Positions 4,355 to 53,058 of a stretch of 64,000 bases of DNA are shown piece after piece. The translations under genes and the position numbers were made by a program. Under the pieces are notes generated by a model, which saw nothing but the letters and a program-made list of their open reading frames with translations, had not been told where the DNA came from and did no database searches. Where the stretch lies: assembly GCA_018648805.1 (NCBI GenBank), contig JABGQM010000005.1:49433-113432 (forward strand). Direction: 5' to 3'. This stretch comes from Verrucomicrobiota bacterium (GTDB lineage Bacteria; Verrucomicrobiota; Kiritimatiellia; UBA8416; JABMPJ01). How positions within the stretch are numbered: position 1 is the stretch's first letter; each line of letters begins with the position of its first letter.

Positions 4355-4370
4355 GCAGGCAGTGATACGT

Positions 4371-28091: not shown

Positions 28092-29480
28092 CTATCGCTT
28101 AAGCTTCTGGTATTTCCGCTTCTTGAGCACCAACCGCAGCTTGATCAGTGGAATGGCCGCGCTGGAGGTCAGGAACTTGATCACGAGGAAGCGCAGTCGC
28201 GGGAAGCGGCTGAGTCCAATCAAGCCCGAGATCACACGCTCCTTAATGACATCCTTCTTCGTGTGATCAGGCGTATCACGGTCGTAGGTCGGTACGGCCC
28301 TTCCTGCCTTCTTGAGGCGCGCCACGCGTAGTGGGGCGTTGACCCCTTTGCGCCGGGTCTGGATGCGATGCGTGCGGTAACTTGGATCGTCCGAGACGCA
28401 GATCGTGGTGATCGCACCGGCCTCAACCGCATCGTCCAGCGCCTTGGCCCCGCGCTCGGTTCGTACCAGGATGCGCGAGTGGCCTTTGAACTTGTAGTTG
28501 CCCTCGCGGTCGCGTGTCCAGGCATCGCTGACCGATAGATCTGAAAACTCGCCGGAGCCATCCAGACAGGTCTGGCAGCGCGGCGGCATGTAGAGCGAGA
28601 TCAGGTAGTTGTAGGCACCATCCTTGTAGTTGGAGTAGTGCATGTCGCGGATGGTGTCGTTCTTGAGCAGGGCACGCATCTTGCCCGGCCATTCGCCACC
28701 GCGAAACTCGAAGCCGTTGATGTCATCCCGCCCCAGGTGCTTGGTCTTCAGCAGGTCGGTGACCACCTCCGGTTCGAGTGAGCCACCGCAGAAGAGACCG
28801 ATGGCCAGATGAATCTTGCCCGCCAGTTCAGGGCAGGCTTCCTGCATCAGGCGGTAGCCATGCATCTGGCAGGGCAGGGCGGCCAGAGCAAAGCGGCCCT
28901 GCTCGCGTCGCAGCAGGGCGAAGACCTCGTTGACCGGAATGATCATGTAGCGTGAGCCCTGGCTCTGCAGCAGCTCGGTGCGCGTGCGGGCAATAAAGGC
29001 TTCGCCGCGCCATGGCTGGTCCGGCTTCATACGCGTCACGATGCAGCCATCCACGACCTTGTGCTCCAGCAGATCGGCCAGCAGTCCCGTGATAATGCCG
29101 CCGCCCGCGCCGCGTGCCTGAATCTCCGGGTCGGTCGACTTGCCGACAAATGTCTCACGCACATGTCCGTCGAACGAATCGGTGTCGTGGTCATGTCCAA
29201 ACGTGATCTGGGTGAGGTGTTTGTATTCCACCGTGCCGCCCGGACAGGTCTTGGTGCACAGCCCGCAGTCGATGCACGCGTCCTCATCAATCACCGGGTA
29301 GAGATCGTCACCCATCGTGATGGCGCCCGTCGGGCAGACCCCCGCACAGGTCCCGCAGCGGGTGCAGAGGGTCTTGTCCGTGAACGCGATACTGAGATGG
29401 TCCGGGGAAATTGCCATGCGCGCAAGCAAACCCGATGCACCATACGCAGTCAAGGGGAAAGGCTCCTGTGCGTTTGCCAT
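28092..29480 (-). CDS. Coenzyme F420 hydrogenase/dehydrogenase beta-subunit (FrhB)-like protein with two N-terminal 4Fe-4S ferredoxin motifs
   Basis: CTRCGTCAGVCP and CIDCGLCTKTCP clusters precede an FrhB-like body. Start chosen at MANAQEP (ATG 29480..29478). The track's longer N-terminus is read through the upstream inverted repeat. Confidence 0.6.
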   Translation of the reverse strand: MANAQEPFPLTAYGASGLLARMAISPDHLSIAFTDKTLCTRCGTCAGVCPTGAITMGDDLYPVIDEDACIDCGLCTKTCPGGTVEYKHLTQITFGHDHDTDSFDGHVRETFVGKSTDPEIQARGAGGGIITGLLADLLEHKVVDGCIVTRMKPDQPWRGEAFIARTRTELLQSQGSRYMIIPVNEVFALLRREQGRFALAALPCQMHGYRLMQEACPELAGKIHLAIGLFCGGSLEPEVVTDLLKTKHLGRDDINGFEFRGGEWPGKMRALLKNDTIRDMHYSNYKDGAYNYLISLYMPPRCQTCLDGSGEFSDLSVSDAWTRDREGNYKFKGHSRILVRTERGAKALDDAVEAGAITTICVSDDPSYRTHRIQTRRKGVNAPLRVARLKKAGRAVPTYDRDTPDHTKKDVIKERVISGLIGLSRFPRLRFLVIKFLTSSAAIPLIKLRLVLKKRKYQKLKR

Positions 29481-29504
29481 GCTCTTTCCGACCAGGGGGA
29501 GATT

Positions 29505-29610
29505 CAACGCCCAACAACCAACGCCCAACAACCAACTTCCAAGGGAAGACGAACGTTCTGTGCCTCCCTACTTGGATGTTGGGCGTTGGATGTTGGATGT
29601 TGGAGGTTCA
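29505..29610. repeat. Long imperfect inverted repeat (predicted stem-loop) with nested small palindromes, in the divergent intergenic region
   Basis: Left arm caacgcccaacaaccaacgcccaacaaccaac contains a 15-nt direct repeat. Right arm ggatgttgggcgttggatgttggatgttgg pairs with it at ~21/23 positions. The loop contains cttcc-aag-ggaag and the perfect palindrome gaacgttc. Confidence 0.5.
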
Positions 29611-29716
29611 GTTTTCCTTACTGTTCTTCCCGCACCACGTGTGGTCTATTCCTTTTGCACACGGCGAAAATTTCTCGCAAAGCCCTCTGCTTTGCGACAG
29701 GGTAACTATCTTCAGC

Positions 29717-38302: not shown

Positions 38303-40770
38303 GTGAGACGGATCGAGTTGGGCCTGACCATGAGATGCCGGTCGTCTCTGTGGTGATTCCGTGTTTCAACGCGGCCGCAACCATCTTGGAAACGCTGGAA
38401 AGTGTGACGGCTCAAACGTATGCGTCGTGGGAGGCGGTCATCATCAATGACGGATCGACGGATGATACCACGGCTCTGGTTGAGGGGGTTCAGGCCGGTG
38501 ATGATCGCATTCACCTGATCAACGTGCCTCTGAATGAGGGGTTGTCCTCCGCCCGCAACAGGGCGATTCGTGCGGCGCGAGGGGCGTTCATCAAGTTCCT
38601 GGATGCCGATGACCGGTTGACCCCCGATGCGCTGGGCCTGATGGTCGACCGGGCTCGTGAGCGTCCGGAATGTGCGGGTGTCTATGCGTCCTGGATACAC
38701 TGCTATCCGGACGGACGGCAACGCGCGTGGCCCGTGGCACAGGAGCACGCACTCTCCTTTGAGACGCTGGTGAGTGGCAATCGACTCCATATTCAGGCCG
38801 TCATGCTCCGCAAGACGGTGATTGAGGAGGCCGGCCTGTTCTTTGATGAGGGCTTTGTGGACTATGCACAGGGCGCGGAAGACTGGGATGTGTGGATTCG
38901 TCTCTACCGCTGTGGCTATCGGTTGGCTCGTCTGAATACACCCGTGGCACTCTACCGTGAACGGGCAGACAGCATGAGTCACGATCATCTGTCGCAGTGG
39001 CGCTCGGGGTGTCACACCCTTGATCTTGCCTTTGTGCCTGATGCACGTTGTCCGAAGGCACTGCCCGAGTTCGCGGAGGGGCCTCCGTCGGTGACGAAGA
39101 CGCAGTCGCAGCTGGCATGGAACACTGAACATCTCAAGGGCTGCATCCTCGAGGGGGACGTTGGCGCTGTCGAGGGGCTGATTGAGGCTATCCGTGTGAA
39201 GGCGTTGCCCTTCCCCAGTTCGGTTGAATTGGCGCATGCCATGGTGTTTGCGCTGAAAAGTGAGCCCGAGGGTTTCGCTCGGCTGACAGCAGACTGGCCC
39301 AACCGTTATCGGTGCCTGCTCTGCGCCTTGCGCGCCATCCGCCGCGCCACGATGTCGCCCTTCTATGTGGCCGAGTTCATGGCGGCATGGTTGGCCTGTG
39401 TGCCGCACGACATTGATCCGCGGCCGATGCTCGCCGCCGCCCTCCGCCATGGGGGAGTGTCCTGGCTGCAATACCTTAGGCGCCGAAGCCACTGGCGTGA
39501 GCTGGAACGTAACCTGTGCCGTGAACGTCCGTCCGAACGCCGTGTGGCCATCGTGTGCGACTGGGTACCCTACCCGGTGCGGTCGGGGGATAACAAGCGT
39601 ACCGCCGAGATGATCGACGTGCTGCGGCAGAAGGGGTGGTGTGTCCATCTCGTGCTGACCCGCCCCCTGACCCGCAAGAGCCAGAAACGGCTCTGCCTGA
39701 CACATGCCGATGCCTTGCATGTCTTCTTTGGCGGCAACCTGCTCGGTCACGCCTTTCGGTTTGCCGTACGCAAGGTCGATGGCCTGCTCTTTCATCTCAA
39801 ATTGCCGCCGCTGCGCGACACGGTCAGCCGGTTGCTTGGTCGCCAACGCCACCTCGCGGTCGCCCTGTTCAGCCAGATGCCGACCTACCAGTCCGGGTTC
39901 AAGGAATACCTGGCCAAACTGGCGATCCGTCACGAATGGAATGCGGTCGTCATCAACTACCAGTGGCTCTACCCCTCAATCGAAGCGCTGCCCCCATCCG
40001 TTGTAACCCTCCTCGATACGATCGACCTCCAGCATAAGCGTGTCGAACAGTTCGAATCGCGCGACCTGAACGGCGTGCACGCCATCACACGCGCGGAAGA
40101 AGCGGAAACCATGCGTGGGTTCGATGCCATCCTTGCCATCCAGGAAGAGGAGGCCGGCGAAATACGTCAGATGTGTCCCGGACACGCCGTGATCACCGTC
40201 GGAACCAGCTCCCCGCCGCCGCCGCCACGGGATGTGCCCCTGCGCCCCTATTCACTGTTTTACGTGGGCGGTGCCAATGCGGCCAATATCGATGGCCTGC
40301 GGCACTTCCTGGATCGTTGCTGGCCCCGCATCTGTGCGGCCCGGCCGGATGCCGAGCTGCGCGTCTGTGGGCATGTCTACCAGGCGTTTCTTGGAGAATC
40401 ACGCGATAGGGTCACGTTCCTGGGCCATGTCGATGATGTCGAGCTGGAGTACGCACAGGCGGCTGTGGTGATCAATCCGATCTGGGTCGGCACCGGCCTG
40501 AAGATCAAGACCGTCGAAGCCCTGGCGCGCGCCAAACCGCTGGTCACGACCCAAAAGGGGATTGAGGGGATGTCCGGCAATCCCGACGCGGCATGCCGGG
40601 TTGTCGATGGGGATGAGGCCTTTGTTGATGCCGTCGTGCAACTTGTCGCGACCCCGTCAGCGTGTCGTGACCTGGCCCGGGAAGCGGCGACCTACCGTGA
40701 TCAGTTCTTGTCACCCGATGTGGTATACCGCGAGCTATTCGCCTTTCTTGATGAAAATTCTAGTCGATAA
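38299..40770 (+). CDS. Bifunctional glycosyltransferase: N-terminal GT2 domain plus C-terminal GT4 (group 1) domain (WbdA-like multidomain polymerising GT)
   Basis: GT2 segment VVSVVIPCFNAAATILETLESVTAQTY...IINDGSTDDT...FLDADD. C-terminal GT4-like segment SLFYVGGANAANIDGL...VINPIWVGTGLKIKTVEALARAKPLVTT. Confidence 0.65.
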   Translation: MSETDRVGPDHEMPVVSVVIPCFNAAATILETLESVTAQTYASWEAVIINDGSTDDTTALVEGVQAGDDRIHLINVPLNEGLSSARNRAIRAARGAFIKFLDADDRLTPDALGLMVDRARERPECAGVYASWIHCYPDGRQRAWPVAQEHALSFETLVSGNRLHIQAVMLRKTVIEEAGLFFDEGFVDYAQGAEDWDVWIRLYRCGYRLARLNTPVALYRERADSMSHDHLSQWRSGCHTLDLAFVPDARCPKALPEFAEGPPSVTKTQSQLAWNTEHLKGCILEGDVGAVEGLIEAIRVKALPFPSSVELAHAMVFALKSEPEGFARLTADWPNRYRCLLCALRAIRRATMSPFYVAEFMAAWLACVPHDIDPRPMLAAALRHGGVSWLQYLRRRSHWRELERNLCRERPSERRVAIVCDWVPYPVRSGDNKRTAEMIDVLRQKGWCVHLVLTRPLTRKSQKRLCLTHADALHVFFGGNLLGHAFRFAVRKVDGLLFHLKLPPLRDTVSRLLGRQRHLAVALFSQMPTYQSGFKEYLAKLAIRHEWNAVVINYQWLYPSIEALPPSVVTLLDTIDLQHKRVEQFESRDLNGVHAITRAEEAETMRGFDAILAIQEEEAGEIRQMCPGHAVITVGTSSPPPPPRDVPLRPYSLFYVGGANAANIDGLRHFLDRCWPRICAARPDAELRVCGHVYQAFLGESRDRVTFLGHVDDVELEYAQAAVVINPIWVGTGLKIKTVEALARAKPLVTTQKGIEGMSGNPDAACRVVDGDEAFVDAVVQLVATPSACRDLAREAATYRDQFLSPDVVYRELFAFLDENSSR

Positions 40771-41953
40771 TGGAAACTATCAGCTCGTGAATCTTGGCGA
40801 TATCGCCATGATGGATGTGTTTGTGCAGCGGATCATGGCGATGTTCGGCAATCCCGAGATCATGCTGGTCACGCGCAACCCGGATGCGGCAGCACGTCAG
40901 TTTCCAGGTATAACGCCGGTCGATCCCCATCTCCTGGTGCCTTCTGCCCGGCCCCTGAACCGGTTGGCTCGGTGGCGCCGGAAGGCGGGAGTACGGGTAG
41001 GGGTACCGCGGCCAGCGCCAACGGAAATCCCACTCATTGATGGCGTGGATGCTGTGCTGTTTTCCGGGTGTGGGTTTCTCAATGATCATTTTTCTTTCGG
41101 GGCGGCCATGCGCCTGCGTCGTTTGTTGTACGCCGCGAAGCGGGGCAAGGTTGTGGCCCTGTTTGGACAGGGGGTAGGGCCGGTCAGTGCACCGGCCCTC
41201 AGGCAGGCCATGGCTGCAACATTGCCGCTGGCTGATCTCATCGGCGTCAGGGAGCGGGTGGAAGCGCCGCGTATTCTGCGTGAGGTAGGTGTCGCGCAAG
41301 AGAGGATTGCCGTGGTCGGAGATGATGCCACGGAGCTTGCCTTCAGGCGATGTCGCGAGCACCCGGCAGCGCTCCGTATCGGCGTCGGTGTACGGGCGGC
41401 ACCCTACGCTGGAATCGGTAAGGCCGAAGCGCATCTGCTTGCGGACTCACTCGCGCGGGTGCTGGGCGAGCATGGCGCGCAAGCGGTGCCTATTCCGATC
41501 ACCTTCCAATCAGAATTCTCGGATCGCACGACGCTGCAGCGCCTGCTGGCATGCAGCGTCCCTGGCATGGGGGACATGACCGTGGATCGGATCATTGACG
41601 ACGTCGGTAGCTGTGGTGTTGTGGTCTCCGGCACGTACCATGCTGCCGTTTTTGCCCTGGCCCAGGGCATACCGGTGGTCGGAATCTATGCCAACGACTA
41701 TTACCGGACCAAGTTGCACGGCCTGTTCGATATGTATGGGTGGTCGGAGGAAAACCTGCTGCACGTTCAGCAGGCCGACTTCTCCGGCTTGCTGGCCACG
41801 CGTGTTCGCGATCTGCTGATCCACAAAGACCGCTTCACGACGCCCCTGCGCGATGCCGCCCGGCACCAGATCCACGCCTCGCGGGATAGCTACAGTCGCT
41901 TGGCCGTCTTGTTGGGGGGCGCGCCTCTGCCTCCGTTCCGCAAGGCCGTGTAA
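40751..41953 (+). CDS. Polysaccharide pyruvyl transferase family protein (second copy)
   Basis: ATG at 40751, in frame with the track ORF 40562 and overlapping the upstream gene by 20 nt. N-terminus MKILVDNGNYQLVNLGDIAMM is a typical family start. Confidence 0.6.
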   Translation: MKILVDNGNYQLVNLGDIAMMDVFVQRIMAMFGNPEIMLVTRNPDAAARQFPGITPVDPHLLVPSARPLNRLARWRRKAGVRVGVPRPAPTEIPLIDGVDAVLFSGCGFLNDHFSFGAAMRLRRLLYAAKRGKVVALFGQGVGPVSAPALRQAMAATLPLADLIGVRERVEAPRILREVGVAQERIAVVGDDATELAFRRCREHPAALRIGVGVRAAPYAGIGKAEAHLLADSLARVLGEHGAQAVPIPITFQSEFSDRTTLQRLLACSVPGMGDMTVDRIIDDVGSCGVVVSGTYHAAVFALAQGIPVVGIYANDYYRTKLHGLFDMYGWSEENLLHVQQADFSGLLATRVRDLLIHKDRFTTPLRDAARHQIHASRDSYSRLAVLLGGAPLPPFRKAV

Positions 41954-43845: not shown

Positions 43846-45294
43846 GTGTGTCTCTTGGTCTTCAGTTCACTAGTCTTTCTTCTTCTGTTCCTCCCCGCCT
43901 TCCTTTTGCTGTACTATGCCTGTCCCTCCCGCTGGCGCAATATGGTGGCCCTTGCCGGAAGCATGGTGTTCTATGCTTGGGGCGCCCCTCGCTTCATTCT
44001 TGTGCTGTTGGGGTCCTGTCTACTGGACTATCTCTGTGCACGGAAAATAGAGAGTGCGCCCCACCGCACACGCCGCCTGATTATCCTGGCGGTGGTGTTC
44101 AACGTTCTGGTCCTGGTATTCTTTAAATATGCCAACTTCTTTGTGGCTCAGCTCGACTCCCTGCTTGGCGCCGCGGCGCATGGCGGGGCGATTCCCTGGA
44201 AGCCGATCGCGCTGCCCATCGGAATCTCGTTTTTCACGTTTCAGAAGATTAGTTATCTGATTGACGTCTACAGAGGGCGCGTCGAACCGGCCCGGTCCTA
44301 CCGTGACTACGTGCTGTATGTGAGCCTCTTCCCGCAACTCATTGCCGGTCCCATCGTGCGCTATCACGACGTGGCGGATCAGATCCGGTCGCGGATCTGT
44401 TCATCCGCCATGATTTCGGACGGGTTTCGTCGCTTTACTATCGGGCTGGCTAAGAAGGTCCTGATCGCCAACCATGTCGGCGAAGTGGCCGATACCATGT
44501 TTAACGGGCCTCCTCTCCAGATGTCATGTGTGCAGGCCTGGGTGGGGCTGCTCTGCTACAGCTTTCAGATATACTTCGATTTCTCGGGATATTCGGATAT
44601 GGCTATCGGCTTGGGGCGCTTGCTGGGCTTCAAGTTTCTCGAGAATTTCAACCGTCCCTATATGGCCGCGAGTTTCACTGACTTCTGGCGCCGCTGGCAC
44701 ATCTCGTTGTCAAACTGGATGCGGGAGTATCTTTATATCCCGCTTGGGGGCAATCGCGTGTCGCACCTGCTCCAAGTCAGGAACCTTTGGATCGTGTTTC
44801 TGGTCTCAGGATTCTGGCATGGCGCCAGTTGGAACTTTATTGCATGGGGGGCGTATCACGGGTTCTTCCTCTCACTCGAGCGGATAACGTTTGTGCGTCG
44901 AGTCCATGACGCCCTGCCGCGCTTGGTACGCACGTTGGGCACTTTTGTCCTGGTCTCGATCGGCTGGTGTTTCTTCCGTGCCGAGGACCTCTCCGGGGCG
45001 TGGGCCTTCCTCATGCGGCTTTTTGCTTGCGGCAATACGGGGCAGGGCTTGTATCCCACTCGTCTGCTCTACTATATTGTCTCGCCACGTATTGCGGTGG
45101 CATTCGTGGCCGCCTGCCTGCTCAGTTTCTGGCCCGCTCGCGCGACAAAGCTTGACCTGGAGTGCTCCGGGGGTGCCCAGTGGGGCCTCGCTAGGCTTGT
45201 CGGCGCCAACCTGTTTACGATCGTGCTTCTGGCTTTCTCGCTAGGGGCTTTGGCTACCCAGGCGTTTAACCCGTTTATATACTTCAGGTTTTAG
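43846..45294 (+). CDS. MBOAT family membrane-bound O-acyltransferase (AlgI/DltB-like), copy 1
   Basis: FFTFQKISYLIDVYRG, YFDFSGYSDMAIGLGRLLGF, and FWRRWHISLSNWMREYLYIPLGGNR with the conserved His. The start may be the TTG/GTG a few codons in (MVFSSLVFLL). Confidence 0.75.
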   Translation: MCLLVFSSLVFLLLFLPAFLLLYYACPSRWRNMVALAGSMVFYAWGAPRFILVLLGSCLLDYLCARKIESAPHRTRRLIILAVVFNVLVLVFFKYANFFVAQLDSLLGAAAHGGAIPWKPIALPIGISFFTFQKISYLIDVYRGRVEPARSYRDYVLYVSLFPQLIAGPIVRYHDVADQIRSRICSSAMISDGFRRFTIGLAKKVLIANHVGEVADTMFNGPPLQMSCVQAWVGLLCYSFQIYFDFSGYSDMAIGLGRLLGFKFLENFNRPYMAASFTDFWRRWHISLSNWMREYLYIPLGGNRVSHLLQVRNLWIVFLVSGFWHGASWNFIAWGAYHGFFLSLERITFVRRVHDALPRLVRTLGTFVLVSIGWCFFRAEDLSGAWAFLMRLFACGNTGQGLYPTRLLYYIVSPRIAVAFVAACLLSFWPARATKLDLECSGGAQWGLARLVGANLFTIVLLAFSLGALATQAFNPFIYFRF

Positions 45295-45414
45295 ATGAGA
45301 CGCATGCTGCAACTTCTACCCCTGATGCTCTACATGGCTGTTGCCGGAACGATCGCGTTGCAGGGAAATCATGCGTTCGTGGCCCGACAACGTCTGTATG
45401 GAGAGCCTAATTAG
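45295..45414 (+). pseudogene. 5' fragment (39 codons) of an AlgJ/AlgX/DltD-like partner gene, cut by an IS insertion
   Basis: Starts directly after the MBOAT stop, the same arrangement as copy 2 at 50775. MRRMLQLLPLMLYMAVAGTIALQGNHAFVARQRLYGEP is homologous to the copy-2 N-terminus MRRFLQLGPIMVYAAVVASVAIQQYTRRVELHPLDGEP. The frame then runs into the IS and stops. Confidence 0.7.
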
Positions 45415-47299
45415 AGCCCATCTGAAAAGGGTTTCGGACCGGGGTTCTGAGTTCAAAGTTCACGGTTCAAGGTTGCCTCCGGGCGTGACAAGCACCCCCC
45501 TTGAGCATTTTTCGGATGCCGTGCCTCAATGACGCGTGATTTCACCATTTTTTGAGACAGCTCGTCCATGCTGTTCCCTCCACTCCGTACGAATCGGCCA
45601 TTCAGGCCGCTTTATCCAAAGCCTCCCGTCGTCGCTTCCTCATCAGGATGATGCGGCAGCAGTTGTAGGCCAGCACCTTTTCCATCAACTCCGACCGAAC
45701 CGCCTCTATACCCCGGCGACCCAATTCGCCGAATTCAAAGCCGTCCTTTATCGTGAACATCAGAGACTCGACCGCCGAGCGGTCCCGCCGAGCTCCGCGA
45801 TATGTCTCGCTTTCCCACTCATTGAGGCCGGTCAACTTCTTGCCTTTGGCCCCGCTGATGCTGATATCCTCTACGCCCATGTCCAGCACTTCATCGCGCC
45901 CCTTTGCTGAAGCATATCCATCGTCAGTACTGACCAGTGCGGCCGTCACTCCCGTGCGCTTGATGGACTCACGGATTGCCGGCACCAGTTCAATAGAGTC
46001 AGCCGCGTTCCCCTCCGGAACGATCAGGCTGGTGACAAAACCGTTTGCGCTACGAACCAGTTGTGGCCTATATCCGATAACCGGCAAGCGGCTGCCCTTC
46101 TTGATATAGGCAGCCGATCCGTCCGACAGGCTCAGGACCTTCTCCGTCGAGGGAAGCTTCTTGTCGTGAAACACTCGGTCATTGGCGTAGTCGATAACTC
46201 TGTTTCCATCGGCGAGGTCAGCTTTGACCTGATCCAACACTCGCTGTAGAAGCACGCGGCGACTGGGCGGGAGCGTCTCTATCAACAGTTCCTGCTCAAG
46301 GCGGTTGAGTTCCGTTGTCAACGCGTTCGCCGCCTTGCGTCCAAGTCTGAGCAATCCCCGATAACGTTTCTTCAATTTGACGATGGAATTCGCCTTGCCC
46401 GCTACCAGGCAAATCTGAAACACCAGCTTGTCCATCTCTTCGAGCCAGCGAGCAACCCAGCCTTGCCGAAAATTCTCGAACCCGAATACATTCAGTTTCT
46501 GCCCCAGACGATTCGCCCGCATCAGCAGCCCCGTAAGGATCTTCGCATCGGTGGGCCAACTGCTGTTGGCCTTCACCGAGGTACTGTCGATCGTCAGTTT
46601 CAAGAAGTCATCCAGATCTTCTTTGAGAACAAACTTGATCTGTTCATCGAATATCACGTTCAACGTCTTGGCGCTCACCAGATTTATGTTTTCCAGAATC
46701 GTGGTTACGCCCGGCATCGTCAGATCACGGTTATCAAGATAAGCGTATAAGCTCATCGACTCGCGCAGAAAGCGCCTCGATGTCTTTGACGCCAACGAGC
46801 CACCCAGAAATCCGCGGATCATCACAAACAGATAAACCAGCTCCGCCGACATACGTGGCCGCCCCGTGCCTAGCTCCAATTGATCAGCCAGGAGCTCCGC
46901 GTCCGCCACATGAAGGTCGGGTAGATCCAATGTCGTGATCTCAAAGAACTTCCGATCCTCGATTCGAAGCTTCTTCTTGGCGCGTGCATTGGCATCCAGG
47001 TCTTTCTCGATTTCCTCAATGATTTTCGGTGCGAATCGGGACAACGCGTCCACTTCGTCGAGATAATCACGAAAGTCGGTGTCTGGAACCGGCAAAATCA
47101 GGTTGTAGATAGGGGCGGCTTCTGCTAGCTTCTGCTGTGTCGCACATGTTGGCATGCTCAACTCCTTGAGTAGTGTTAAGTTGTTGAACACTAGCATGTT
47201 GCGACACATTCTTGCAAGCCTGAAATCGGATATTGTCAACTTTTTCTTTGCGGTCCTTGCGTTCTTTCGCGGTGAATAAAGACCTTCTCAGATAACGTC
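45414..47299 (-). mobile_element. Insertion sequence (~1.89 kb, IS5/IS1182-superfamily-like) with a TAATTA target-site duplication and imperfect terminal inverted repeats
   Basis: Direct repeat ctaatta/taatta at 45407-45413 and 47299-47305. Left end gagcccatctgaaaagg versus right-end reverse complement gacgttatctgagaagg match at 12/17 positions. Interior GC is lower than the flanks. Removing the element plus one TSD copy restores the interrupted reading frame. Confidence 0.65.
45602..47239 (-). CDS. DDE transposase (IS1182/IS5-like)
   Basis: 545-aa ORF fills the IS. C-terminal RRDRSAVESLMFTIKDGFEFGELGRRGIEAVRSELMEKVLAYNCCRI resembles the conserved C-terminal block of IS5/IS1182-type DDE transposases. 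Confidence 0.6.
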   Translation of the reverse strand: MTISDFRLARMCRNMLVFNNLTLLKELSMPTCATQQKLAEAAPIYNLILPVPDTDFRDYLDEVDALSRFAPKIIEEIEKDLDANARAKKKLRIEDRKFFEITTLDLPDLHVADAELLADQLELGTGRPRMSAELVYLFVMIRGFLGGSLASKTSRRFLRESMSLYAYLDNRDLTMPGVTTILENINLVSAKTLNVIFDEQIKFVLKEDLDDFLKLTIDSTSVKANSSWPTDAKILTGLLMRANRLGQKLNVFGFENFRQGWVARWLEEMDKLVFQICLVAGKANSIVKLKKRYRGLLRLGRKAANALTTELNRLEQELLIETLPPSRRVLLQRVLDQVKADLADGNRVIDYANDRVFHDKKLPSTEKVLSLSDGSAAYIKKGSRLPVIGYRPQLVRSANGFVTSLIVPEGNAADSIELVPAIRESIKRTGVTAALVSTDDGYASAKGRDEVLDMGVEDISISGAKGKKLTGLNEWESETYRGARRDRSAVESLMFTIKDGFEFGELGRRGIEAVRSELMEKVLAYNCCRIILMRKRRREALDKAA

Positions 47300-47348
47300 T
47301 AATTATGCCAAGATCCCTCGCCCCACCGGCAGTGTCACACGGTGGTGG

Positions 47349-48392
47349 ATGGGCACATTCCAGGCCGATTTCGGCCAGTGGTATGCACGGGCATTCGGGT
47401 TTCGTCCGCGGTTGATACGCTGCTACAACGAGGTGATGTACAGGGCGCTTCGCGAATCCGCAGAAACGAAGCGGCAGAAACGGTTCGTGGGTCGTGACGG
47501 GTGGCTCTATTCGTGGGACTATATTGAGCATCTCTGCTTCCCGCGGGCCCTTGAGCAGGGGCTGTTGTCGCATCGTGTCGCTACGCTGGCGAAGGCCCGG
47601 GATATTCTTGCCCAAGAGGGCGTTGCACTCGTTGTGGCTGTGGCTCCCAGCAAAGCCAACGTGCATGCCGATATGCTACCTGCACGTTTCCGTCGCCTTG
47701 CACCGCCCCCCTCCGAATGCTACCAGAGCATGATTAACATGTTTGAAGAGAGCGAAATCCCCTATGTTGATTTCGACGCCCAGTTCATTCGTCATCGGAA
47801 GGAAGACCGTGATTTCATGCCATTTCCGTCGACCGGCATTCACTGGAACTATGTTGTCGCGGGAGATGCGCTGGAGCAGATTATGGGTATGGCCGAGCAG
47901 CAACTCGGTTTTCCTATAAAGCGTAGTGTGCCGAGAGGGGTGATCCAGCGAGAGAGCATTGCCTCCGACCGCGACTTGCTGGATATGCTCAATATCGCCA
48001 CAACTGAGCGCTTCGTCCTGCCGTCACCCTACCCCCGCTACGAGAAATGCGCACCTGAAGGGGCACAAGAGGTGAAGATGTTCTTCGTTGGCGACAGTTT
48101 TGCGAGCCAGTTGATCCGAATTATTGCCGATCAGAGAATGTGTCCGCAACCTACCTTTTGGAGTTACTTCTGCGACGAGAAGGAGGTCGGCTCAACGTAT
48201 AGACGTGCCTTCCGCACATCCCGCATTGATAAGCCCGCAATTGACTGGGATGAGGTCATCGCGGAGCATGATATCATCGTTATTGAGTTCAACGTGGTTT
48301 TCTGCTGGAATCAGCAGGAACACGGGTTCGGGTGGGGGTTTGCTGATAGGCTTGTTGCCGCTATGGAGAGATCCTGCGAGGAGGAACACTGA
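47349..48392 (+). CDS. AlgJ/AlgX/DltD-like (SGNH-like) O-acyltransferase partner, copy 1, 3' portion: N-terminally truncated by the IS insertion and probably inactive
   Basis: Homologous throughout to 50775..52019 (GIHWNYV vs GVHWNHV; KMFFVGDSFASQLIRIIADQ vs RVLLVGDSFAGQIVRIMADQ). Homology extends upstream of the ATG to the IS right end. The signal-anchor segment is left on the other side of the IS. Confidence 0.6.
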   Translation: MGTFQADFGQWYARAFGFRPRLIRCYNEVMYRALRESAETKRQKRFVGRDGWLYSWDYIEHLCFPRALEQGLLSHRVATLAKARDILAQEGVALVVAVAPSKANVHADMLPARFRRLAPPPSECYQSMINMFEESEIPYVDFDAQFIRHRKEDRDFMPFPSTGIHWNYVVAGDALEQIMGMAEQQLGFPIKRSVPRGVIQRESIASDRDLLDMLNIATTERFVLPSPYPRYEKCAPEGAQEVKMFFVGDSFASQLIRIIADQRMCPQPTFWSYFCDEKEVGSTYRRAFRTSRIDKPAIDWDEVIAEHDIIVIEFNVVFCWNQQEHGFGWGFADRLVAAMERSCEEEH

Positions 48393-48396
48393 ACGC

Positions 48397-49170
48397 ATGA
48401 AACTGTTTGTCCAGGAACTGCTGCTCAAGACCTATGCCCTGATCGTACGCACTGGCGTGCTCGAGACTCGGGCTGGCCGCCGGCTCTTCGCGGGGGCTTA
48501 TAACCTCTACAAACTCCTGCTTGAGGCGTGTGAGATACGGTTCTTGCGTGCCTACGTGAAGCCCGGTGAGGTCGTTGTGGATGTTGGCGCCAACGTCGGG
48601 TTCTTCACGCGGCGTTTTGCCCAGTGGGTCAGTGATGGCGGGTTCGTCATTGCGATTGAGCCCGAGGAAACCAACTTCCGGAATCTGCTGCGCAATCTGG
48701 ATCGGTATCATCTTGCGGCCGCCGTCAGGCCGTTCCAGGGCGTTGCGGCTGAAGCGCCCGGCACGCTCAAGCTCGAGATCAATCCGATCCACCCGGCCGA
48801 CCACAAGATCGGTGCCGAAGGCGTCGATGTGACCGCCTACACGGTTGACGGCCTGGTTCGGCAGGAGGGTGTCAGCCGCGTCAGCCTGATGAAAATCGAT
48901 GTGCAAGGCGCCGAAGAACGTGTCCTGCGCGGCGCCGGCGAGATGATCGCGCGTGATCACCCCGTCATCTTCATCGAGATGGATGACACCGGGCTGCGCA
49001 AGATGGACTCCAGCGCCCAACGCGTGATCGATCTGCTCACAGAAGCCAACTACGAGATCCGCCACTTCAGCAAGGCCGGTAAACCCGAGCTGATCTCAAT
49101 CGAGACGGCACTCGGCCTCTGCGCCGATGGCCGCTATACCGACCTGCTGTTTGTGCCTGTTGTTGCGTAG
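48397..49170 (+). CDS. FkbM family methyltransferase
   Basis: ATG at 48397 with GAGGAG upstream. VVDVGANVGFFTRRFA (SAM motif I) and GFVIAIEPEETNFRNL are typical FkbM-family features. Confidence 0.65.
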   Translation: MKLFVQELLLKTYALIVRTGVLETRAGRRLFAGAYNLYKLLLEACEIRFLRAYVKPGEVVVDVGANVGFFTRRFAQWVSDGGFVIAIEPEETNFRNLLRNLDRYHLAAAVRPFQGVAAEAPGTLKLEINPIHPADHKIGAEGVDVTAYTVDGLVRQEGVSRVSLMKIDVQGAEERVLRGAGEMIARDHPVIFIEMDDTGLRKMDSSAQRVIDLLTEANYEIRHFSKAGKPELISIETALGLCADGRYTDLLFVPVVA

Positions 49171-49337
49171 CCCTCTGGGGCGAATAGGCGCGCCAGGAGC
49201 GTGCAGGAGTAGGGCTGCTGGAGTAGAGGCCTATAGCGTAATGTGGCTCTCGCATCCAGGTTTGCTTCCCGTGATCTTATCATTTACTGTCAGTTGGTTC
49301 ATTCATTTCAACGGCGTCTCTTCTGGGTGGGATTCGA

Positions 49338-50774
49338 TTGGTCTTTAGTTCTCTACTCTTTCTGTTGGTGTTCCTTCCCGTCTTTCTTGGGATTTACTAC
49401 GCCAGCCCCAGGTCCTGGCGCAATGCCGTAGCGGTAGCAGGCAGTCTGCTCTTCTACGCGTGGGGTGCTCCGCGATTCATAGTGGCCCTGCTGGGCTCCT
49501 GCCTGGTTGACTATGTCTGTACACGCAAGATGGGATCCGACCCCCAACGCACGCGTGCTCGTATTGTTCTTGCGATTGCCTTCAATGTGAGCGTTCTCGT
49601 CTTCTTTAAATACTCGAACTTCATGGTGCAGCAGTGCAATGGGCTCCTTGGCTCGATATCATCTGGTGGTGTGATTCCCTGGAAGACCATCGCGCTGCCC
49701 ATCGGGATCTCTTTCTTCACATTCCAGAAGATCAGCTATCTGGTGGATGTGCGGCGAGAGCGCATGGAGCCGGCCCGCACCTTTCTGGATTACCTGCTCT
49801 ATGTCTGTCTGTTTCCTCAACTGATAGCAGGACCCATCGTGCGGTACCACGATGTGGCCCGTCAGATCACGAGTCGTGTTCACTCCACACTGCTGGTCTC
49901 TGATGGGTTCCGCCGGTTCGTGATCGGGCTGGCCAAGAAAGTGCTGATTGCCAACCATGTGGGGCTGATTGCTGACGCGACGTTCAACGGATCGCCCAGT
50001 CATCTGTCCTGTGGCCAGGCGTGGATCGGGGTCATCGCCTATAGCTTTCAGATCTACTTTGACTTCTCTGGTTACTCCGACATGGCTATCGGTTTGGGTC
50101 GGCTGATGGGGTTTCGGTTTCTCGAGAACTTCAATAGGCCTTACCTCGCGATCGGTTTTACCGATTTCTGGCGTCGATGGCATATCTCGCTTTCCAACTG
50201 GATGCGGGAGTATCTGTATCTACCCCTCGGGGGAAATCGCGTATCACACTTTGTGCAGATTCGGAATCTCTGGATTGTGTTTCTGGTGTCTGGACTCTGG
50301 CATGGCGCCAGTTGGAATTTTGTGGCGTGGGGTGCCTATCATGGTCTCTTCCTCTCCTTGGAAAAGGGGCGTAGGGTACAATCGCTTCTCACGGTTCTGC
50401 CCGCCTGGGTTCGCAGGTCTGTGACGTTCCTGCTGATATCCATTGGATGGTGTTTCTTTCGTGCCGGTACGTTCGAGGGGGCTCTGGCAATGATCTCACG
50501 GTTGTTCACCTTAGGTCCGGCTACAGCGGCGATCGTTCCCATACGAAGCTTGGCGTATTTGCTGAGCCCTAGAATCGCAGTGGCCCTGCTGGTCGCCGCC
50601 ATACTCAGTTTTTGGCCGGAATCCGGGCGTAGCCATCGGAAGGTGGTGCCGGGTTCTGGGGTGTGGACAGTGGACCATCTGTTCTCTGCCGCCGGGACGA
50701 TCGTGCTGTTGCTGGCCTGTGTCGGGGCTCTGACGGTCCAAGATTTTAACCCCTTCATCTACTTCAGGTTCTAG
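49338..50774 (+). CDS. MBOAT family membrane-bound O-acyltransferase (AlgI/DltB-like), copy 2
   Basis: Paralog of 43846..45294 with the same motifs: FFTFQKISYLVDVRRE, YFDFSGYSDMAIGLGRLMGF, WRRWHISLSNWMREYLYLPLGGNR. N-terminus MVFSSLLFLLVFLPVFLGIYY. Confidence 0.75.
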   Translation: MVFSSLLFLLVFLPVFLGIYYASPRSWRNAVAVAGSLLFYAWGAPRFIVALLGSCLVDYVCTRKMGSDPQRTRARIVLAIAFNVSVLVFFKYSNFMVQQCNGLLGSISSGGVIPWKTIALPIGISFFTFQKISYLVDVRRERMEPARTFLDYLLYVCLFPQLIAGPIVRYHDVARQITSRVHSTLLVSDGFRRFVIGLAKKVLIANHVGLIADATFNGSPSHLSCGQAWIGVIAYSFQIYFDFSGYSDMAIGLGRLMGFRFLENFNRPYLAIGFTDFWRRWHISLSNWMREYLYLPLGGNRVSHFVQIRNLWIVFLVSGLWHGASWNFVAWGAYHGLFLSLEKGRRVQSLLTVLPAWVRRSVTFLLISIGWCFFRAGTFEGALAMISRLFTLGPATAAIVPIRSLAYLLSPRIAVALLVAAILSFWPESGRSHRKVVPGSGVWTVDHLFSAAGTIVLLLACVGALTVQDFNPFIYFRF

Positions 50775-52019
50775 ATGCGTCGCTTCCTACAACTGGGCCC
50801 GATCATGGTTTACGCGGCAGTGGTGGCCTCTGTGGCCATTCAGCAGTACACTCGTCGTGTGGAGCTCCATCCGCTCGATGGGGAACCGTTGCCCGAAAAT
50901 ATCCCGGCGCCCGTCTGTGACCTGCGGCATTGGTTTGATGGAACGCTGCAGGCAGAGCTGTCATCCTGGTACCCTAAGATTCTCGGGTTCAGGCCGTTGA
51001 TCATTCGCCTCTACAATGAGGTCTTGTATTCTGCGTTGCATGATGCGAACAGCGGGTCCCGCTCGAAGGTGGTTGTGGGAAGGGATGAAGAACTCTTCAC
51101 ATGGTATTTCGTCTCCCGTAGCATCTACCATGCAACGCTGAACGAGGCGCTCCTCGAAGCGCGCGTGGAGAAGCTGAAGCGAGTACAGAGCATTCTGCAT
51201 GATCGGGGCATTGCCCTTGTGGTGGTGATCACGCCGAGCAAGGCGAGTGTTTACCATGATAAACTCCCGTATCGTTTCTCTCGCGGGTGGACGTCGCAAC
51301 CGCCTCCCCTCTATGCGCGAATGCGCTCGTTACTTGAGGACGCCGGGGTCCGGTACTTGGATTTCGATAGAGAGTTTCTACGCAAACGCACAATGGATGA
51401 CCAGTTTGGGCCTTTCCCGAAGACCGGCGTTCACTGGAACCATGTGTCCGCCGGATATGCGTTGGAGCGTATCTTCAAAGAGGGGGAAGCACAGCTTGGG
51501 GTGGACATTGAGCGCCGTGTTCCCGTGGGAGTGGCCTCGCGCCGCACCATTGATACGGACCGCGACGCTCTGAGTATGCTCAATCTGCTATCAGATTCGC
51601 GGCGGGCCCTGCCGTCTCCGTATCCGCTGTATCGCCCCCATGGAGTTGATGGTGCTTTACGGGCCCGCGTGCTTCTCGTAGGCGATAGTTTTGCGGGGCA
51701 GATTGTCAGGATCATGGCCGATCAGGATATGTGTGACTATGTGACGTACTGGTGGTACTTCCGGTCAGAAGCCACAGTGGGATCCACGGTTACCCCCGCG
51801 TTTGCCCGAAAGCCGATTGCCAAGGATTCCATTGACTGGAACCAGCTGCTGGACGACCACAACCTGGTCGTCATCGAGTTCAACAAGGCCTTTTGCAAGT
51901 CCCAGCAGGTTCAGGGGTTCGGCTGGGGGTTTGCGGATGCGCTTGCCGATGCCTTCCCCGCTCCGTCCGAGACATCGCCCGACGGTATACGGTCTCAAGT
52001 CGATCCCTCACAACCGTAG
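50775..52019 (+). CDS. AlgJ/AlgX/DltD-like (SGNH-like) O-acyltransferase partner, copy 2 (intact, with N-terminal signal anchor)
   Basis: ATG follows immediately after the MBOAT stop. N-terminal hydrophobic segment MVYAAVVASVAIQQY. Motifs GVHWNHVSAGY and LLVGDSFAGQIV. Confidence 0.55.
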   Translation: MRRFLQLGPIMVYAAVVASVAIQQYTRRVELHPLDGEPLPENIPAPVCDLRHWFDGTLQAELSSWYPKILGFRPLIIRLYNEVLYSALHDANSGSRSKVVVGRDEELFTWYFVSRSIYHATLNEALLEARVEKLKRVQSILHDRGIALVVVITPSKASVYHDKLPYRFSRGWTSQPPPLYARMRSLLEDAGVRYLDFDREFLRKRTMDDQFGPFPKTGVHWNHVSAGYALERIFKEGEAQLGVDIERRVPVGVASRRTIDTDRDALSMLNLLSDSRRALPSPYPLYRPHGVDGALRARVLLVGDSFAGQIVRIMADQDMCDYVTYWWYFRSEATVGSTVTPAFARKPIAKDSIDWNQLLDDHNLVVIEFNKAFCKSQQVQGFGWGFADALADAFPAPSETSPDGIRSQVDPSQP

Positions 52020-53058
52020 GGCCGAACTGCTCATGCATGTTTCGGCTTGCCGTGTGTCCGAGCCGCTGCTTCAGGTCTGCGTCATCCAAGAGCCGCGTGA
52101 CGGCCTCAGCCAGAGCGGAGGTGTCCCCCGGAGGCACTAGAAGACCTGTCTGCTCGTGCTGCACGACTTCGGGAATGGCGCCAATGCGCGAGGCGATGAT
52201 GGGCTTGCTGAACGAGGCGGCTACGAATGGGATGCTGCTCTGGCTGGCTTCAAGATAGGGCGCCAGGGCAATCGAACATCGCTCAAACAGCGCCGCGCTC
52301 TCGGCATCCGAGACAAACCGGTTGATCACCTCGATGCGGTCACCCAGTTGCGCTATCGGGGCGGCGTAGGGGGTCAGGTCGCCTTGTCCGGCCAGGATAA
52401 GCTTGGCATCGGGCTGGTGTTCGAGAATATCGGGCATGGCTTCCAGAATCGTGCGGATGCCCTTGTACTCCCGCAGGCGGCCGTACAGGAGAAGGGTGTT
52501 GGGCTCCTCGGCAATGCCCGTACGCCACGGCTCGAAGACATCATGAAAGGCCATGGGTGTCACGCACACGCGCGCCGGTGCCAAGTGCCACTTGGCGAGT
52601 GCCAATTCGCGTAGTTTTTCGCTGTGCACGGTAATGATGCGGCTGTGTTTGAGCAGTGGGGCCAGCTTCATGCGGTCGAACGGACGCGGCTCACCCAGGT
52701 GCGGGTCGATGTCATGAATGGTCGATACCATGGGGTAACGGCGTGCCAGGGCACCCAGGAAAAGCCCATAGAGAATGTGGCCGCTGTTGACGTGAATGAT
52801 ATCGGGCTGCCAGTGGTGAATGTCGCGTACGATACGGTGTACCAGCATGGGTGCCGCCAGGTAGCGCAGCAGTTCACCGAGTGTGGCCCACTGCGGCACA
52901 CCGTAAGTGAAGGATCGACTGGCGCTGGACAAATGCTCGTCTGAAACGCCTCTTGGAAGGAAACATGCGACCTCATGGCGCGGTCGCAAGGCGTGCGCCA
53001 GGCTGCTGGCATAGTGCGCCATTGCACCCACATGTAGACTGAGAATAGCTACCCGCAT
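51880..53058 (-). CDS. Glycosyltransferase family 4 (group 1)
   Basis: MRVAILSLHVGAMAHYASSLAHALRPRHEV and a typical GT4 C-terminal half (...LLYGRLREYKGIRTILEAM...EVINRFVSDAE...). The 3' end overlaps the convergent gene by ~140 nt. Confidence 0.65.
   Translation of the reverse strand: MRVAILSLHVGAMAHYASSLAHALRPRHEVACFLPRGVSDEHLSSASRSFTYGVPQWATLGELLRYLAAPMLVHRIVRDIHHWQPDIIHVNSGHILYGLFLGALARRYPMVSTIHDIDPHLGEPRPFDRMKLAPLLKHSRIITVHSEKLRELALAKWHLAPARVCVTPMAFHDVFEPWRTGIAEEPNTLLLYGRLREYKGIRTILEAMPDILEHQPDAKLILAGQGDLTPYAAPIAQLGDRIEVINRFVSDAESAALFERCSIALAPYLEASQSSIPFVAASFSKPIIASRIGAIPEVVQHEQTGLLVPPGDTSALAEAVTRLLDDADLKQRLGHTASRNMHEQFGPTVVRDRLETVYRRAMSRTERGRHRQAHPQTPSRTPEPAGTCKRPC

What the first reader, a model, noticed from the sequence alone, without database searches (positions are those of the whole stretch)
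45295..48392. IS element precisely interrupts copy 1 of the AlgJ/DltD-like partner gene, separating its signal anchor from the catalytic domain
A 1.89 kb element (45414-47299) carrying a 545-aa DDE transposase is flanked by a TAATTA direct repeat. Removing the element plus one repeat copy rejoins the reading frame exactly (…RLYGEP-NYAK-IPRPTGSVTRWW…), collinear with the intact paralog (…PLDGEP-LPEN-IPAPVCDLRHWF…). The insertion therefore looks recent. It probably inactivates one of the two MBOAT partner genes, while copy 2 (50775-52019) stays intact. This is a clean natural knockout and a marker of ongoing IS activity in an accessory island.
Basis: seen in the sequence. Interest (0 to 1): 0.6.

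Follow-up and report, generated by a model that had tools for sequence, protein, structure and literature searches.

The report
Insertion sequence splits a polysaccharide-acylation gene
A 1.9 kb mobile element has jumped into one of two duplicated genes that help decorate a surface polysaccharide in an uncultured marine Verrucomicrobia bacterium; this is a real but ordinary gene knockout.

Summary
An 1886-bp insertion sequence (window 45414-47299, transposase on the minus strand) sits between two copies of TAATTA (45408-13 and 47300-05). Removing the element plus one copy restores a 401-aa AlgX/AlgJ-type gene. That gene aligns end to end with its intact paralog (46% identity) and with an uninterrupted 401-aa ortholog found elsewhere (56%), with no gap at the junction.

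A second, 100%-identical copy of the element lies at another locus in related assemblies, flanked by a different 6-bp repeat (TAAATA). This proves the element's boundaries, the 6-bp target duplication and recent mobility. About 72%-identical relatives occur at least 69 times in one Candidatus Moanabacter genome. There 40 of 69 copies have perfect 6-bp duplications with the consensus T-A-G-N-T-A.

The transposase is a DDE enzyme closest to the ISNCY category, but it scores below the curated cut-off and NCBI calls it only "transposase".

The insertion separates the 38-aa signal anchor from the catalytic domain, so loss of function is likely, though this is inferred. Every sampled contig carries the insertion and no empty allele was found.

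Verdict: a real, ordinary IS knockout by an unnamed member of a known kind. Interest is low.

The parts
43846..45294 (+). MBOAT copy 1 (AlgI/DltB-type membrane O-acyltransferase). Its stop codon TAG directly abuts the ATG of the interrupted partner gene.
   Evidence: Pfam PF03062 E 2e-33. NCBIfam DltB model 162 bits, below its 375 cut-off. 67.6% identical to MBOAT copy 2 and 75% to the ortholog in L097.
45295..45414 (+). N-terminal remnant of partner copy 1: 38 codons carrying the signal anchor, closed by a TAG made of the last two bases of the target duplication plus the first base of the IS.
   Evidence: Sequence read. The only segment with Kyte-Doolittle mean above 1.6 is residues 4-22. It matches the paralog at 18/38 and the ortholog at 22/38, and 0 of 200,000 shuffles reach this. 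Called as a 38-aa gene in public assemblies.
45408..45413 (.). Left copy of the 6-bp target-site duplication TAATTA.
   Evidence: The ortholog has GAC TAC (D-Y) where the restored gene has AAT TAT (N-Y), so one copy is native.
45414..47299 (-). Insertion sequence, 1886 bp, GC 0.537.
   Evidence: Boundaries are fixed by comparison with a second, 1886/1886-identical copy in a different context (L002). It is single-copy within the window.
45414..45430 (.). Terminal inverted repeat at the transposase-distal end (GAGCCCATCTGAAAAGG).
   Evidence: 12 of 17 bases match the other end. The motif GAC..AT..GA.AAG is shared with the Moanabacter relatives.
45602..47155 (-). DDE transposase, 517 aa from ATG 47155 (maximal ORF 545 aa from TTG 47239).
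   Evidence: Pfam DDE_Tnp_1 E 1.9e-8. NCBIfam ISNCY_1 NF033593 266.5 bits, E 3.5e-79, cut-off 325; next best is IS1182 at 62 bits. D190, D411, E463 and R(3)E(6)K are invariant in relatives, including an ISMlo5-family ISNCY transposase. The SD AAGGAG lies upstream.
47283..47299 (.). Terminal inverted repeat at the transposase-proximal end (reverse complement GACGTTATCTGAGAAGG).
47300..47305 (.). Right copy of the 6-bp target-site duplication TAATTA.
47306..48392 (+). C-terminal part of partner copy 1, the AlgX/AlgJ-type SGNH-like catalytic domain. The first available start is ATG 47349 (347-aa ORF without an anchor).
   Evidence: Pfam PF16822 ALGX E 6.8e-16. Upstream, the frame is closed by a TAA inside the IS at 47277-79 (read). 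No hydrophobic segment above 1.6. Identical 347-aa product P0001 on 12 contigs.
48397..49170 (+). Methyltransferase (Methyltransf_21) starting 4 nt after the interrupted gene's stop, so it may suffer polar effects.
   Evidence: Precomputed Pfam PF05050 on the identical contigs. Coordinates mapped through.
49338..50774 (+). MBOAT copy 2.
   Evidence: Pfam PF03062 E 4.2e-31.
50775..52019 (+). Intact partner copy 2 (414 aa, ALGX domain).
   Evidence: Pfam PF16822 E 3.5e-16. Full-length alignment with the restored copy 1.

Best explanation
A cut-or-copy-and-paste DDE insertion sequence of the ISNCY category, unnamed and in a clade with a roughly 95-aa N-terminal extension, inserted into the only TA-R-N-TA hexamer of an algX/algJ-like gene.

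Shown: the insertion duplicated the 6-bp target TAATTA. It split the gene after codon 38 into a 38-aa signal-anchor peptide and an anchorless 347-aa catalytic-domain ORF. A sequence-identical copy sits at a second locus with its own duplication (TAAATA), so the element transposed recently.

Inferred: the catalytic domain of this enzyme class must work outside the cytoplasm, next to its MBOAT partner. The anchorless fragment is therefore non-functional, and MBOAT copy 1 is left without a partner. One of two O-acyl decorations of the polysaccharide made by this glycosyltransferase / pyruvyltransferase / methyltransferase cluster is probably lost, while pair 2 remains intact. Transcription of the downstream methyltransferase may also be reduced.
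For: - Precise restoration of a 401-aa ORF that is collinear with the paralog and with an uninterrupted 401-aa ortholog. That ortholog follows an MBOAT with the same TAG|ATG junction and reads GEP-DY-A at the insertion point.
- A second site has TAAATA/TAAATA and an 1886/1886-identical element.
- Both sites are represented in one MAG, GCA_018673455.1 (contigs 65 and 30).
- In 72%-identical relatives, 40 of 69 copies have perfect 6-bp duplications with consensus T-A-G-N-T-A.
- The restored gene has exactly one TARNTA site, and it is the one used.
- The DDE triad is conserved and ISNCY_1 is by far the best family model.
- The only hydrophobic segment lies in the detached 38 aa.
- The partner matches AlgJ, PatB1 and AlgX structures by profile.
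Against: - No expression or phenotype data are available.
- The 347-aa fragment is still an intact ORF. One promoter-like site inside the IS points toward it (47038-47067), but that is no more than chance gives.
- The insertion is present in every sampled contig and no empty allele was seen. Loss of the gene is therefore tolerated or even favoured, which weakens 'knockout' as a deleterious event but not as a mechanism.
- The transposase scores below NCBIfam's curated cut-off (266 against 325), so the family assignment is by best resemblance.
Confidence: 0.88

Rival explanations
1. TAATTA is not a target duplication but the outermost part of the element's inverted repeats (it is a palindrome). 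The element would then be 1898 bp and would make no duplication. Removing all of it also keeps the reading frame.
For: TAATTA equals its own reverse complement, and the repeat finder extends the inverted repeat through it (I1). Removing 1898 bp also leaves a multiple of three.
Against: The identical element at the second locus is flanked by TAAATA on both sides, which is not a palindrome and differs from TAATTA. Relatives carry many different 6-bp direct repeats. The ortholog and paralog need the two extra codons (N-Y / D-Y) for an ungapped alignment.
Confidence: 0.02
2. The arrangement is an assembly artefact: a repeat placed into the gene by a metagenome assembler.
For: Metagenome contigs do mis-join through this very element. 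Contigs L005 and L100 have TAAATA on one side and TAATTA on the other, and many contigs break inside it.
Against: Both junctions of the window's arrangement recur in independent assemblies from NCBI, ENA, JGI and Logan. The two flanks are the two halves of one gene with a matching duplication, which a random mis-join would not produce.
Confidence: 0.03
3. The insertion is not a simple loss of function but a selected state. It could be surface-polysaccharide variation to escape phage or grazers. Alternatively the element could drive or insulate expression of the anchorless domain and the downstream methyltransferase / MBOAT2 / ALGX2 genes.
For: The insertion is fixed in all sampled contigs from 10 or more samples. 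Both fragments remain open reading frames. IS-mediated switching of capsule loci is described in other bacteria (title and abstract of PMC12057282, seen).
Against: All contigs are 100% identical over up to 16 kb, so the samples may hold a single clone and fixation carries little weight. There is no promoter signal above chance. There is no evidence of reversible excision.
Confidence: 0.15
4. The gene was already a decaying pseudogene and the insertion is old.
For: No uninterrupted near-identical allele was found.
Against: Apart from the insertion, neither fragment has a frameshift, stop or indel relative to the paralog and ortholog. The duplication is perfect, and the two IS copies are identical at all 1886 positions.
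Confidence: 0.05

Closest known systems
ISNCY-category insertion sequences with IS4/IS5-like DDE transposases (NCBIfam NF033593 'ISNCY family transposase'; PGAP-named 'ISNCY-like element ISMlo5 family'; from memory, the ISDol1 group of ISfinder: 1.6-1.9 kb, 6-7 bp duplication)
   Same: It has a single DDE_Tnp_1-type transposase ORF and imperfect terminal inverted repeats. It is 1886 bp long and makes a 6-bp duplication. NF033593 is the best model by more than 200 bits. It aligns with an ISMlo5-family transposase with D, D, E conserved.
   Different: Identity to the named plasmid-borne ISNCY transposases is only 23-26%, and the score is below the curated cut-off. It has a roughly 95-aa N-terminal extension that is absent from the ISMlo5-type protein. 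NCBI labels it only 'transposase'. It has a marked target preference, TA-R-N-TA. No comparison with ISfinder entries was possible.
AlgI-AlgJ/AlgX (alginate) and PatA-PatB (peptidoglycan / secondary cell wall polysaccharide) two-component O-acetyltransferases
   Same: An MBOAT gene is followed directly by a gene for an anchored SGNH-like ALGX-domain protein. A profile of the family hits AlgJ 4o8v (E 3e-9), PatB1 5v8d and AlgX 4knc. His (..HW..) and Ser (GDSF) align with the catalytic residues.
   Different: The Asp of the canonical D-x-H-W motif is Gly (T-G-I-H-W) in all five clade members aligned. The genetic context is a GT2 / GT4 / pyruvyltransferase / methyltransferase cluster in a Verrucomicrobia MAG, not an alginate operon. 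The acyl group and the substrate are unknown.
IS-mediated inactivation of surface-polysaccharide genes (for example capsule loci of Klebsiella)
   Same: An IS lands in a polysaccharide-modification gene inside a biosynthesis cluster, producing a clean knockout with the duplication intact.
   Different: No phenotype, reversibility or population polymorphism is shown here. A paralogous gene pair remains intact.

Membership tests
DDE insertion sequence, ISNCY category (NF033593 type) | Transposase matches the family model at or above its curated cut-off | tested here: not met
   NF033593 is the best hit (266.5 bits, E 3.5e-79, covering 418 of 444 model positions), but the cut-off is 325. The next family, IS1182, scores only 62 bits. 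It is therefore a relative of this family but not a curated equivalog.
DDE insertion sequence, ISNCY category (NF033593 type) | Conserved D-D-E catalytic residues | tested here: met
   D190 (DSTS), D411 (DDGYAS) and E463 with R(3)E(6)K are invariant across four relatives and an ISMlo5-family transposase. Pfam DDE_Tnp_1 scores above its gathering score.
DDE insertion sequence, ISNCY category (NF033593 type) | Terminal inverted repeats at the mapped ends | tested here: met
   GAGCCCATCTGAAAAGG / GACGTTATCTGAGAAGG match at 12 of 17 positions. The same motif sits at the ends of the Moanabacter relatives.
DDE insertion sequence, ISNCY category (NF033593 type) | Target-site duplication of fixed length at independent insertions | tested here: met
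   6 bp at two loci (TAATTA and TAAATA). 40 of 69 relatives have perfect 6-bp repeats and 5 more have one mismatch.
DDE insertion sequence, ISNCY category (NF033593 type) | More than one copy, showing mobility | tested here: met
   Two loci carry 1886/1886-identical copies. A variant with 90% nucleotide identity occurs elsewhere (L098/L099).
ISDol1 group of ISfinder | Sequence similarity to ISDol1 itself; size 1.6-1.9 kb and 6-7 bp duplication (group values recalled from memory) | not testable with these tools
   ISfinder is not available. Size (1886 bp) and duplication (6 bp) agree with the recalled values. The literature held only confirms that ISDol1 is a subgroup of ISNCY.
AlgX/AlgJ/PatB SGNH-like O-acyltransferase (Pfam PF16822) | Domain match above the gathering score | tested here: met
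   59.2 bits (fragment) and 60.1 bits (paralog) against a cut-off of 26.5. A family profile hits AlgJ, PatB1 and AlgX.
AlgX/AlgJ/PatB SGNH-like O-acyltransferase (Pfam PF16822) | Catalytic Asp-His-Ser triad (D-x-H-W motif and a Ser) | tested here: not met
   His219 and Ser304 (GDSF) align with the catalytic residues. The Asp position is Gly217 in all five aligned clade members. This is a clade-wide variant, not a lesion of the disrupted copy.
AlgX/AlgJ/PatB SGNH-like O-acyltransferase (Pfam PF16822) | N-terminal signal or anchor, and an adjacent MBOAT partner | tested here: met
   There is a hydrophobic segment at residues 4-22 of the restored protein. The MBOAT stop abuts the start codon in copy 1, in copy 2 and in the ortholog.
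DltD / Dlt system | DltD family match for the partner, and a DltB equivalog for the MBOAT | tested here: not met
   The partner has no DltD hit in Pfam or NCBIfam. The MBOAT scores 162 bits on the DltB model against a cut-off of 375.

The most novel reading that the evidence does not exclude
The element may represent an unnamed, distinct subgroup of the poorly characterised ISNCY category. Its features would be an N-terminal extension, a sequence-specific TA-R-N-TA target, spread across phyla (Verrucomicrobiota, Lentisphaerota, Gammaproteobacteria, Chloroflexota) and the capacity for bursts of about 70 copies. In addition, the ATPase-IS-MBOAT1 junction, seen in two independent assemblies, may be a real IS-mediated duplication or deletion that reshapes the polysaccharide locus, with the fixed knockout being adaptive surface variation.
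Probability: 0.2. Interest if true: 0.35.

Novelty: new member of a known kind. Interest (0 to 1): 0.15.

Why it matters
The practical value is mostly annotation.
- The 38-aa and 347-aa ORFs should be annotated as one IS-disrupted pseudogene.
- The transposase, named only 'transposase' by NCBI, can be assigned to the ISNCY category with defined ends, a 6-bp duplication and a TA-R-N-TA target preference.
- The element explains why assemblies of this organism break or mis-join at this locus.

Biologically, it suggests this marine Verrucomicrobia lineage has lost one of two O-acyl decorations of a surface polysaccharide. That is a modest, testable hypothesis. It bears on no long-standing question.

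Tried and rejected
- The look-up of the 545-aa maximal ORF found nothing. The 517-aa product did.
- Two scans of metagenome contigs returned zero hits, one for the empty site and one for the IS end as a positive control. That collection evidently does not hold this organism's contigs, so the absence of an empty site there means nothing. The argument for 'no empty allele' rests only.
- The genome-contig scan did not return the source genome (best identity 76%), so genome-wide copy number in the source could not be counted.
- The promoter/terminator scan and the Rfam scan of 45.0-48.5 kb gave nothing above chance.
- L077 and L087 transposase stretches contain stops, probably frameshifted copies, and were left out of the alignment.
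- The Siguier et al. 2014 FEMS review is not held, and no paper mentions ISMlo5. The ISDol1 group properties are therefore from memory.
- I considered and rejected three readings: TAATTA as part of the inverted repeats, assembly artefact, and old pseudogene (see the rival explanations).
Full report
**1. What is in the sequence**

Reading 45100-48500 shows an MBOAT gene (43846-45294). Its TAG stop is followed directly by an ATG at 45295. That ORF runs for 38 codons (MRRMLQLLPLMLYMAVAGTIALQGNHAFVARQRLYGEPN) and stops at a TAG formed by ..TA|G.. at 45412-45414.

TAATTA occurs at 45408-45413 and again at 47300-47305, with 1886 bp between the two copies. Joining 45295-45413 to 47306-48392 gives a 1206-nt ORF of 401 aa without stops. 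Of the nine alternative joins tested, only those differing by multiples of three stay open.

The restored protein aligns with the paralog at 50775-52019 from residue 1 to 398 (46% identity, E 9e-121) with no gap at the junction. The detached 38-aa piece alone matches the paralog at 18/38 positions and an external ortholog at 22/38. In 200,000 shuffles the maximum was 13.

**2. The element is a bona fide IS and its ends are now fixed**

The minus-strand ORF (maximal 545 aa from TTG 47239) most likely starts at ATG 47155, giving 517 aa. AAGGAG lies upstream. The 517-aa product is on record in public gene calls, whereas the 545-aa one is not.

The exact 517-aa protein is encoded on seven contigs.
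- Several have the same context as the window.
- L002 (MAG GCA_018673455.1) and L006 carry it between a cation-transporting ATPase and a polysaccharide deacetylase.

Alignment shows that similarity to the window begins and ends exactly at 45414 and 47299. At this second locus the element is flanked by TAAATA on both sides, and the two copies are identical at all 1886 positions.

This settles three points.
- The boundaries are right.
- The duplication is 6 bp and is target-derived. TAATTA is a palindrome and could otherwise have been read as part of the inverted repeats.
- Transposition was recent.

In GCA_018673455.1 the second site is assembled through (contig 65), and contig 30 begins inside the IS end that abuts the ALGX fragment. 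Both sites are therefore occupied in one bin.

**3. Family of the element**

Pfam gives DDE_Tnp_1. NCBIfam's best model is the ISNCY family transposase NF033593 (266.5 bits, E 3.5e-79, nearly full model length). This is below the curated cut-off of 325, and the next family (IS1182) scores 62 bits.

tblastn against plasmids finds only 23-26%-identical genes, annotated 'ISNCY family transposase' or 'ISNCY-like element ISMlo5 family transposase'. NCBI names the protein of this MAG just 'transposase'.

In an alignment with four 69-72%-identical relatives and the ISMlo5-family protein, D190, D411 and E463 are invariant, the last within an R(3)E(6)K motif. The relatives share a roughly 95-aa N-terminal extension that the ISMlo5-type protein lacks.

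The ends are imperfect inverted repeats (12/17). Size and duplication length agree with what I recall for the ISDol1 group of ISNCY (1.6-1.9 kb, 6-7 bp), but I could not test that against ISfinder. The held literature only confirms that ISDol1 is an ISNCY subgroup and that ISNCY means 'not characterised yet'.

**4. Behaviour of the clade**

A scan of one genome per species found no 100% copy, so the source genome is not among the returned representatives. It did find 68-76%-identical transposases in MAGs labelled Victivallales, Lentisphaerae, Competibacteraceae and Chloroflexota, and most strikingly in one Candidatus Moanabacter MAG.

In that genome I mapped 69 distinct copies (modal length 1917 bp) with ends GACCTTATCCGAAAAG...CTTTTCGAATGGGGTC.
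- 40 have perfect 6-bp direct repeats.
- 5 have one mismatch.
- The consensus is T(36/40) A(29) G(27) N T(32) A(35).

TAATTA and TAAATA fit TA-R-N-TA. The restored gene contains exactly one such hexamer, the one that was hit. The 62-kb IS-free window has only two TAATTA. The insertion point is thus explained by target preference in a 60% GC genome.

**5. What was hit**

Both the C-terminal fragment and the paralog match Pfam ALGX (PF16822, E about 1e-16). A profile of the family hits AlgJ (4o8v, E 3e-9), PatB1 and AlgX. There is no DltD match, and the MBOAT is well below the DltB cut-off. 'AlgJ/AlgX/PatB-like' is therefore the accurate label.

An uninterrupted 401-aa ortholog (P0002, 56% identity) lies on an ENA contig directly after an MBOAT. 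That MBOAT is 75% identical to copy 1 (67% to copy 2) and has the same TAG|ATG junction. At the insertion point the ortholog reads GAA CCA GAC TAC GCG (E-P-D-Y-A) against the restored GAG CCT AAT TAT GCC (E-P-N-Y-A). One TAATTA copy is therefore native sequence.

The only hydrophobic segment of the protein (residues 4-22, mean hydropathy 1.85) lies in the detached 38 aa. The 347-aa ORF, from Met55, has none above 1.6.

The following step rests on established knowledge of AlgJ/AlgX/PatB-type enzymes, which act on the outer side of the cytoplasmic membrane together with an MBOAT. An anchorless domain should stay in the cytoplasm and be inactive. This step is inferred, not shown.

The methyltransferase gene starts 4 nt after the disrupted gene (48397), so polarity is possible. 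Promoter, terminator and Rfam scans gave nothing above chance.

**6. Age and population state**

Apart from the insertion, the gene fragments carry no lesion, the duplication is perfect, and the IS copies are identical. All of this indicates a recent event.

However, every contig that carries either fragment also carries the IS end. These come from NCBI MAGs, ENA, JGI and Logan assemblies of at least ten samples, and all are 100.000% identical to the window over up to 16 kb. The protein collection holds no near-identical full-length allele.

The sampled population therefore looks clonal and fixed for the insertion. It is not demonstrably a polymorphic 'natural knockout'. My two scans of the JGI contig collection found neither the empty site nor the IS end used as a positive control, and are uninformative.

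**7. Rivals**

- TAATTA as part of the inverted repeats is refuted by the TAAATA site and by the ortholog.
- An assembly artefact is very unlikely, because the two flanks are halves of one gene and both junctions recur in many independent assemblies.
- An adaptive or regulatory role cannot be excluded but has no positive evidence.
- An old pseudogene is contradicted by the lack of decay.

**8. Verdict**

What is there is a routine, recent insertion of an unnamed ISNCY-type element into one of two paralogous polysaccharide O-acyltransferase partner genes. It is a new member of a known kind.

The small additions from this work are the true transposase start, proof of the 6-bp duplication from a second site, the TA-R-N-TA target preference, and the observation that the insertion is fixed in all available assemblies. 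Interest is low (0.15).

Noticed in passing
L005 3132-5017 and L100 2411-4296 (with flanks): Two independent assemblies (MEGAHIT ERZ27246207 and SPAdes ERZ508549) join the ATPase flank of site 2 (TAAATA) through the IS to the N-fragment/MBOAT1 flank of site 1 (TAATTA). This is either a mis-join through the 1.9-kb repeat or a real IS-IS recombination product (deletion, circle or tandem duplication). The reciprocal junction (ALGX-C-IS-deacetylase) was not seen.
   Followed up: partly
L017-L095 (Candidatus Moanabacter sp. MAG CBDCEW01): A 72%-identical relative of the element has expanded to at least 69 copies of about 1917 bp in one long-contig MAG. 24 copies lack matching duplications (two or more mismatches), which suggests IS-IS rearrangements. 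Some copies are adjacent or tandem and share one hexamer (L027, L041, L081).
   Followed up: partly
window 47306-48392 and 50775-52019; alignment A1: In this clade of ALGX-domain proteins the canonical catalytic D-x-H-W motif of AlgJ/PatB1 reads G-[IV]-H-W in all five members, while the His and the GDSF Ser are kept. The Asp of the triad must be supplied elsewhere or dispensed with.
   Followed up: partly
window 55290-57926 (-): An 878-aa protein with AMP-binding + PP-binding (carrier) + thioesterase domains lies about 3 kb from the MBOAT/ALGX pairs. This recalls the DltA/DltC logic and suggests that the acyl donor for one MBOAT pair could be carrier-bound rather than acetyl-CoA.
   Followed up: no
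window 50775-52019 vs 51880-53058 (-); L008, L010: The intact copy-2 partner gene overlaps the convergent GT4 gene by 140 nt through a non-conserved C-terminal tail. It is not listed among the called genes of the two NCBI MAG loci (L008, L010) although the DNA is identical, whereas the ENA and JGI gene calls include it.
   Followed up: no
L098 2496-4244, L099 1-1743: A variant of the element with 90% nucleotide identity occurs in two other JGI metagenomes (3300013120, 3300013117), in flanks unrelated to the window. Its transposase falls in the same 90% protein cluster.
   Followed up: partly
window 43846-52019: The MBOAT/ALGX/methyltransferase module has lower GC (0.567) than the rest of the window (0.61), and the IS is lower still (0.537). 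This is compatible with a variable sub-region of the polysaccharide cluster, but no comparison with related genomes was made.
   Followed up: partly
window 4362-12773 (+): A 2803-aa ORF with multiple MBG, FG-GAP and fibronectin type III domains is probably a giant surface or adhesin-like protein upstream of the polysaccharide cluster.
   Followed up: no
window 28092-29531 (-), 17808-18995 (-), 40562-41953 (+): A FrhB/FdhB-like 4Fe-4S protein and two polysaccharide pyruvyl transferases lie in the same cluster, alongside several large ORFs (167-2947, 12877-15612, 20186-22816, 22813-24972, 29411-32254) that have no Pfam match.
   Followed up: no
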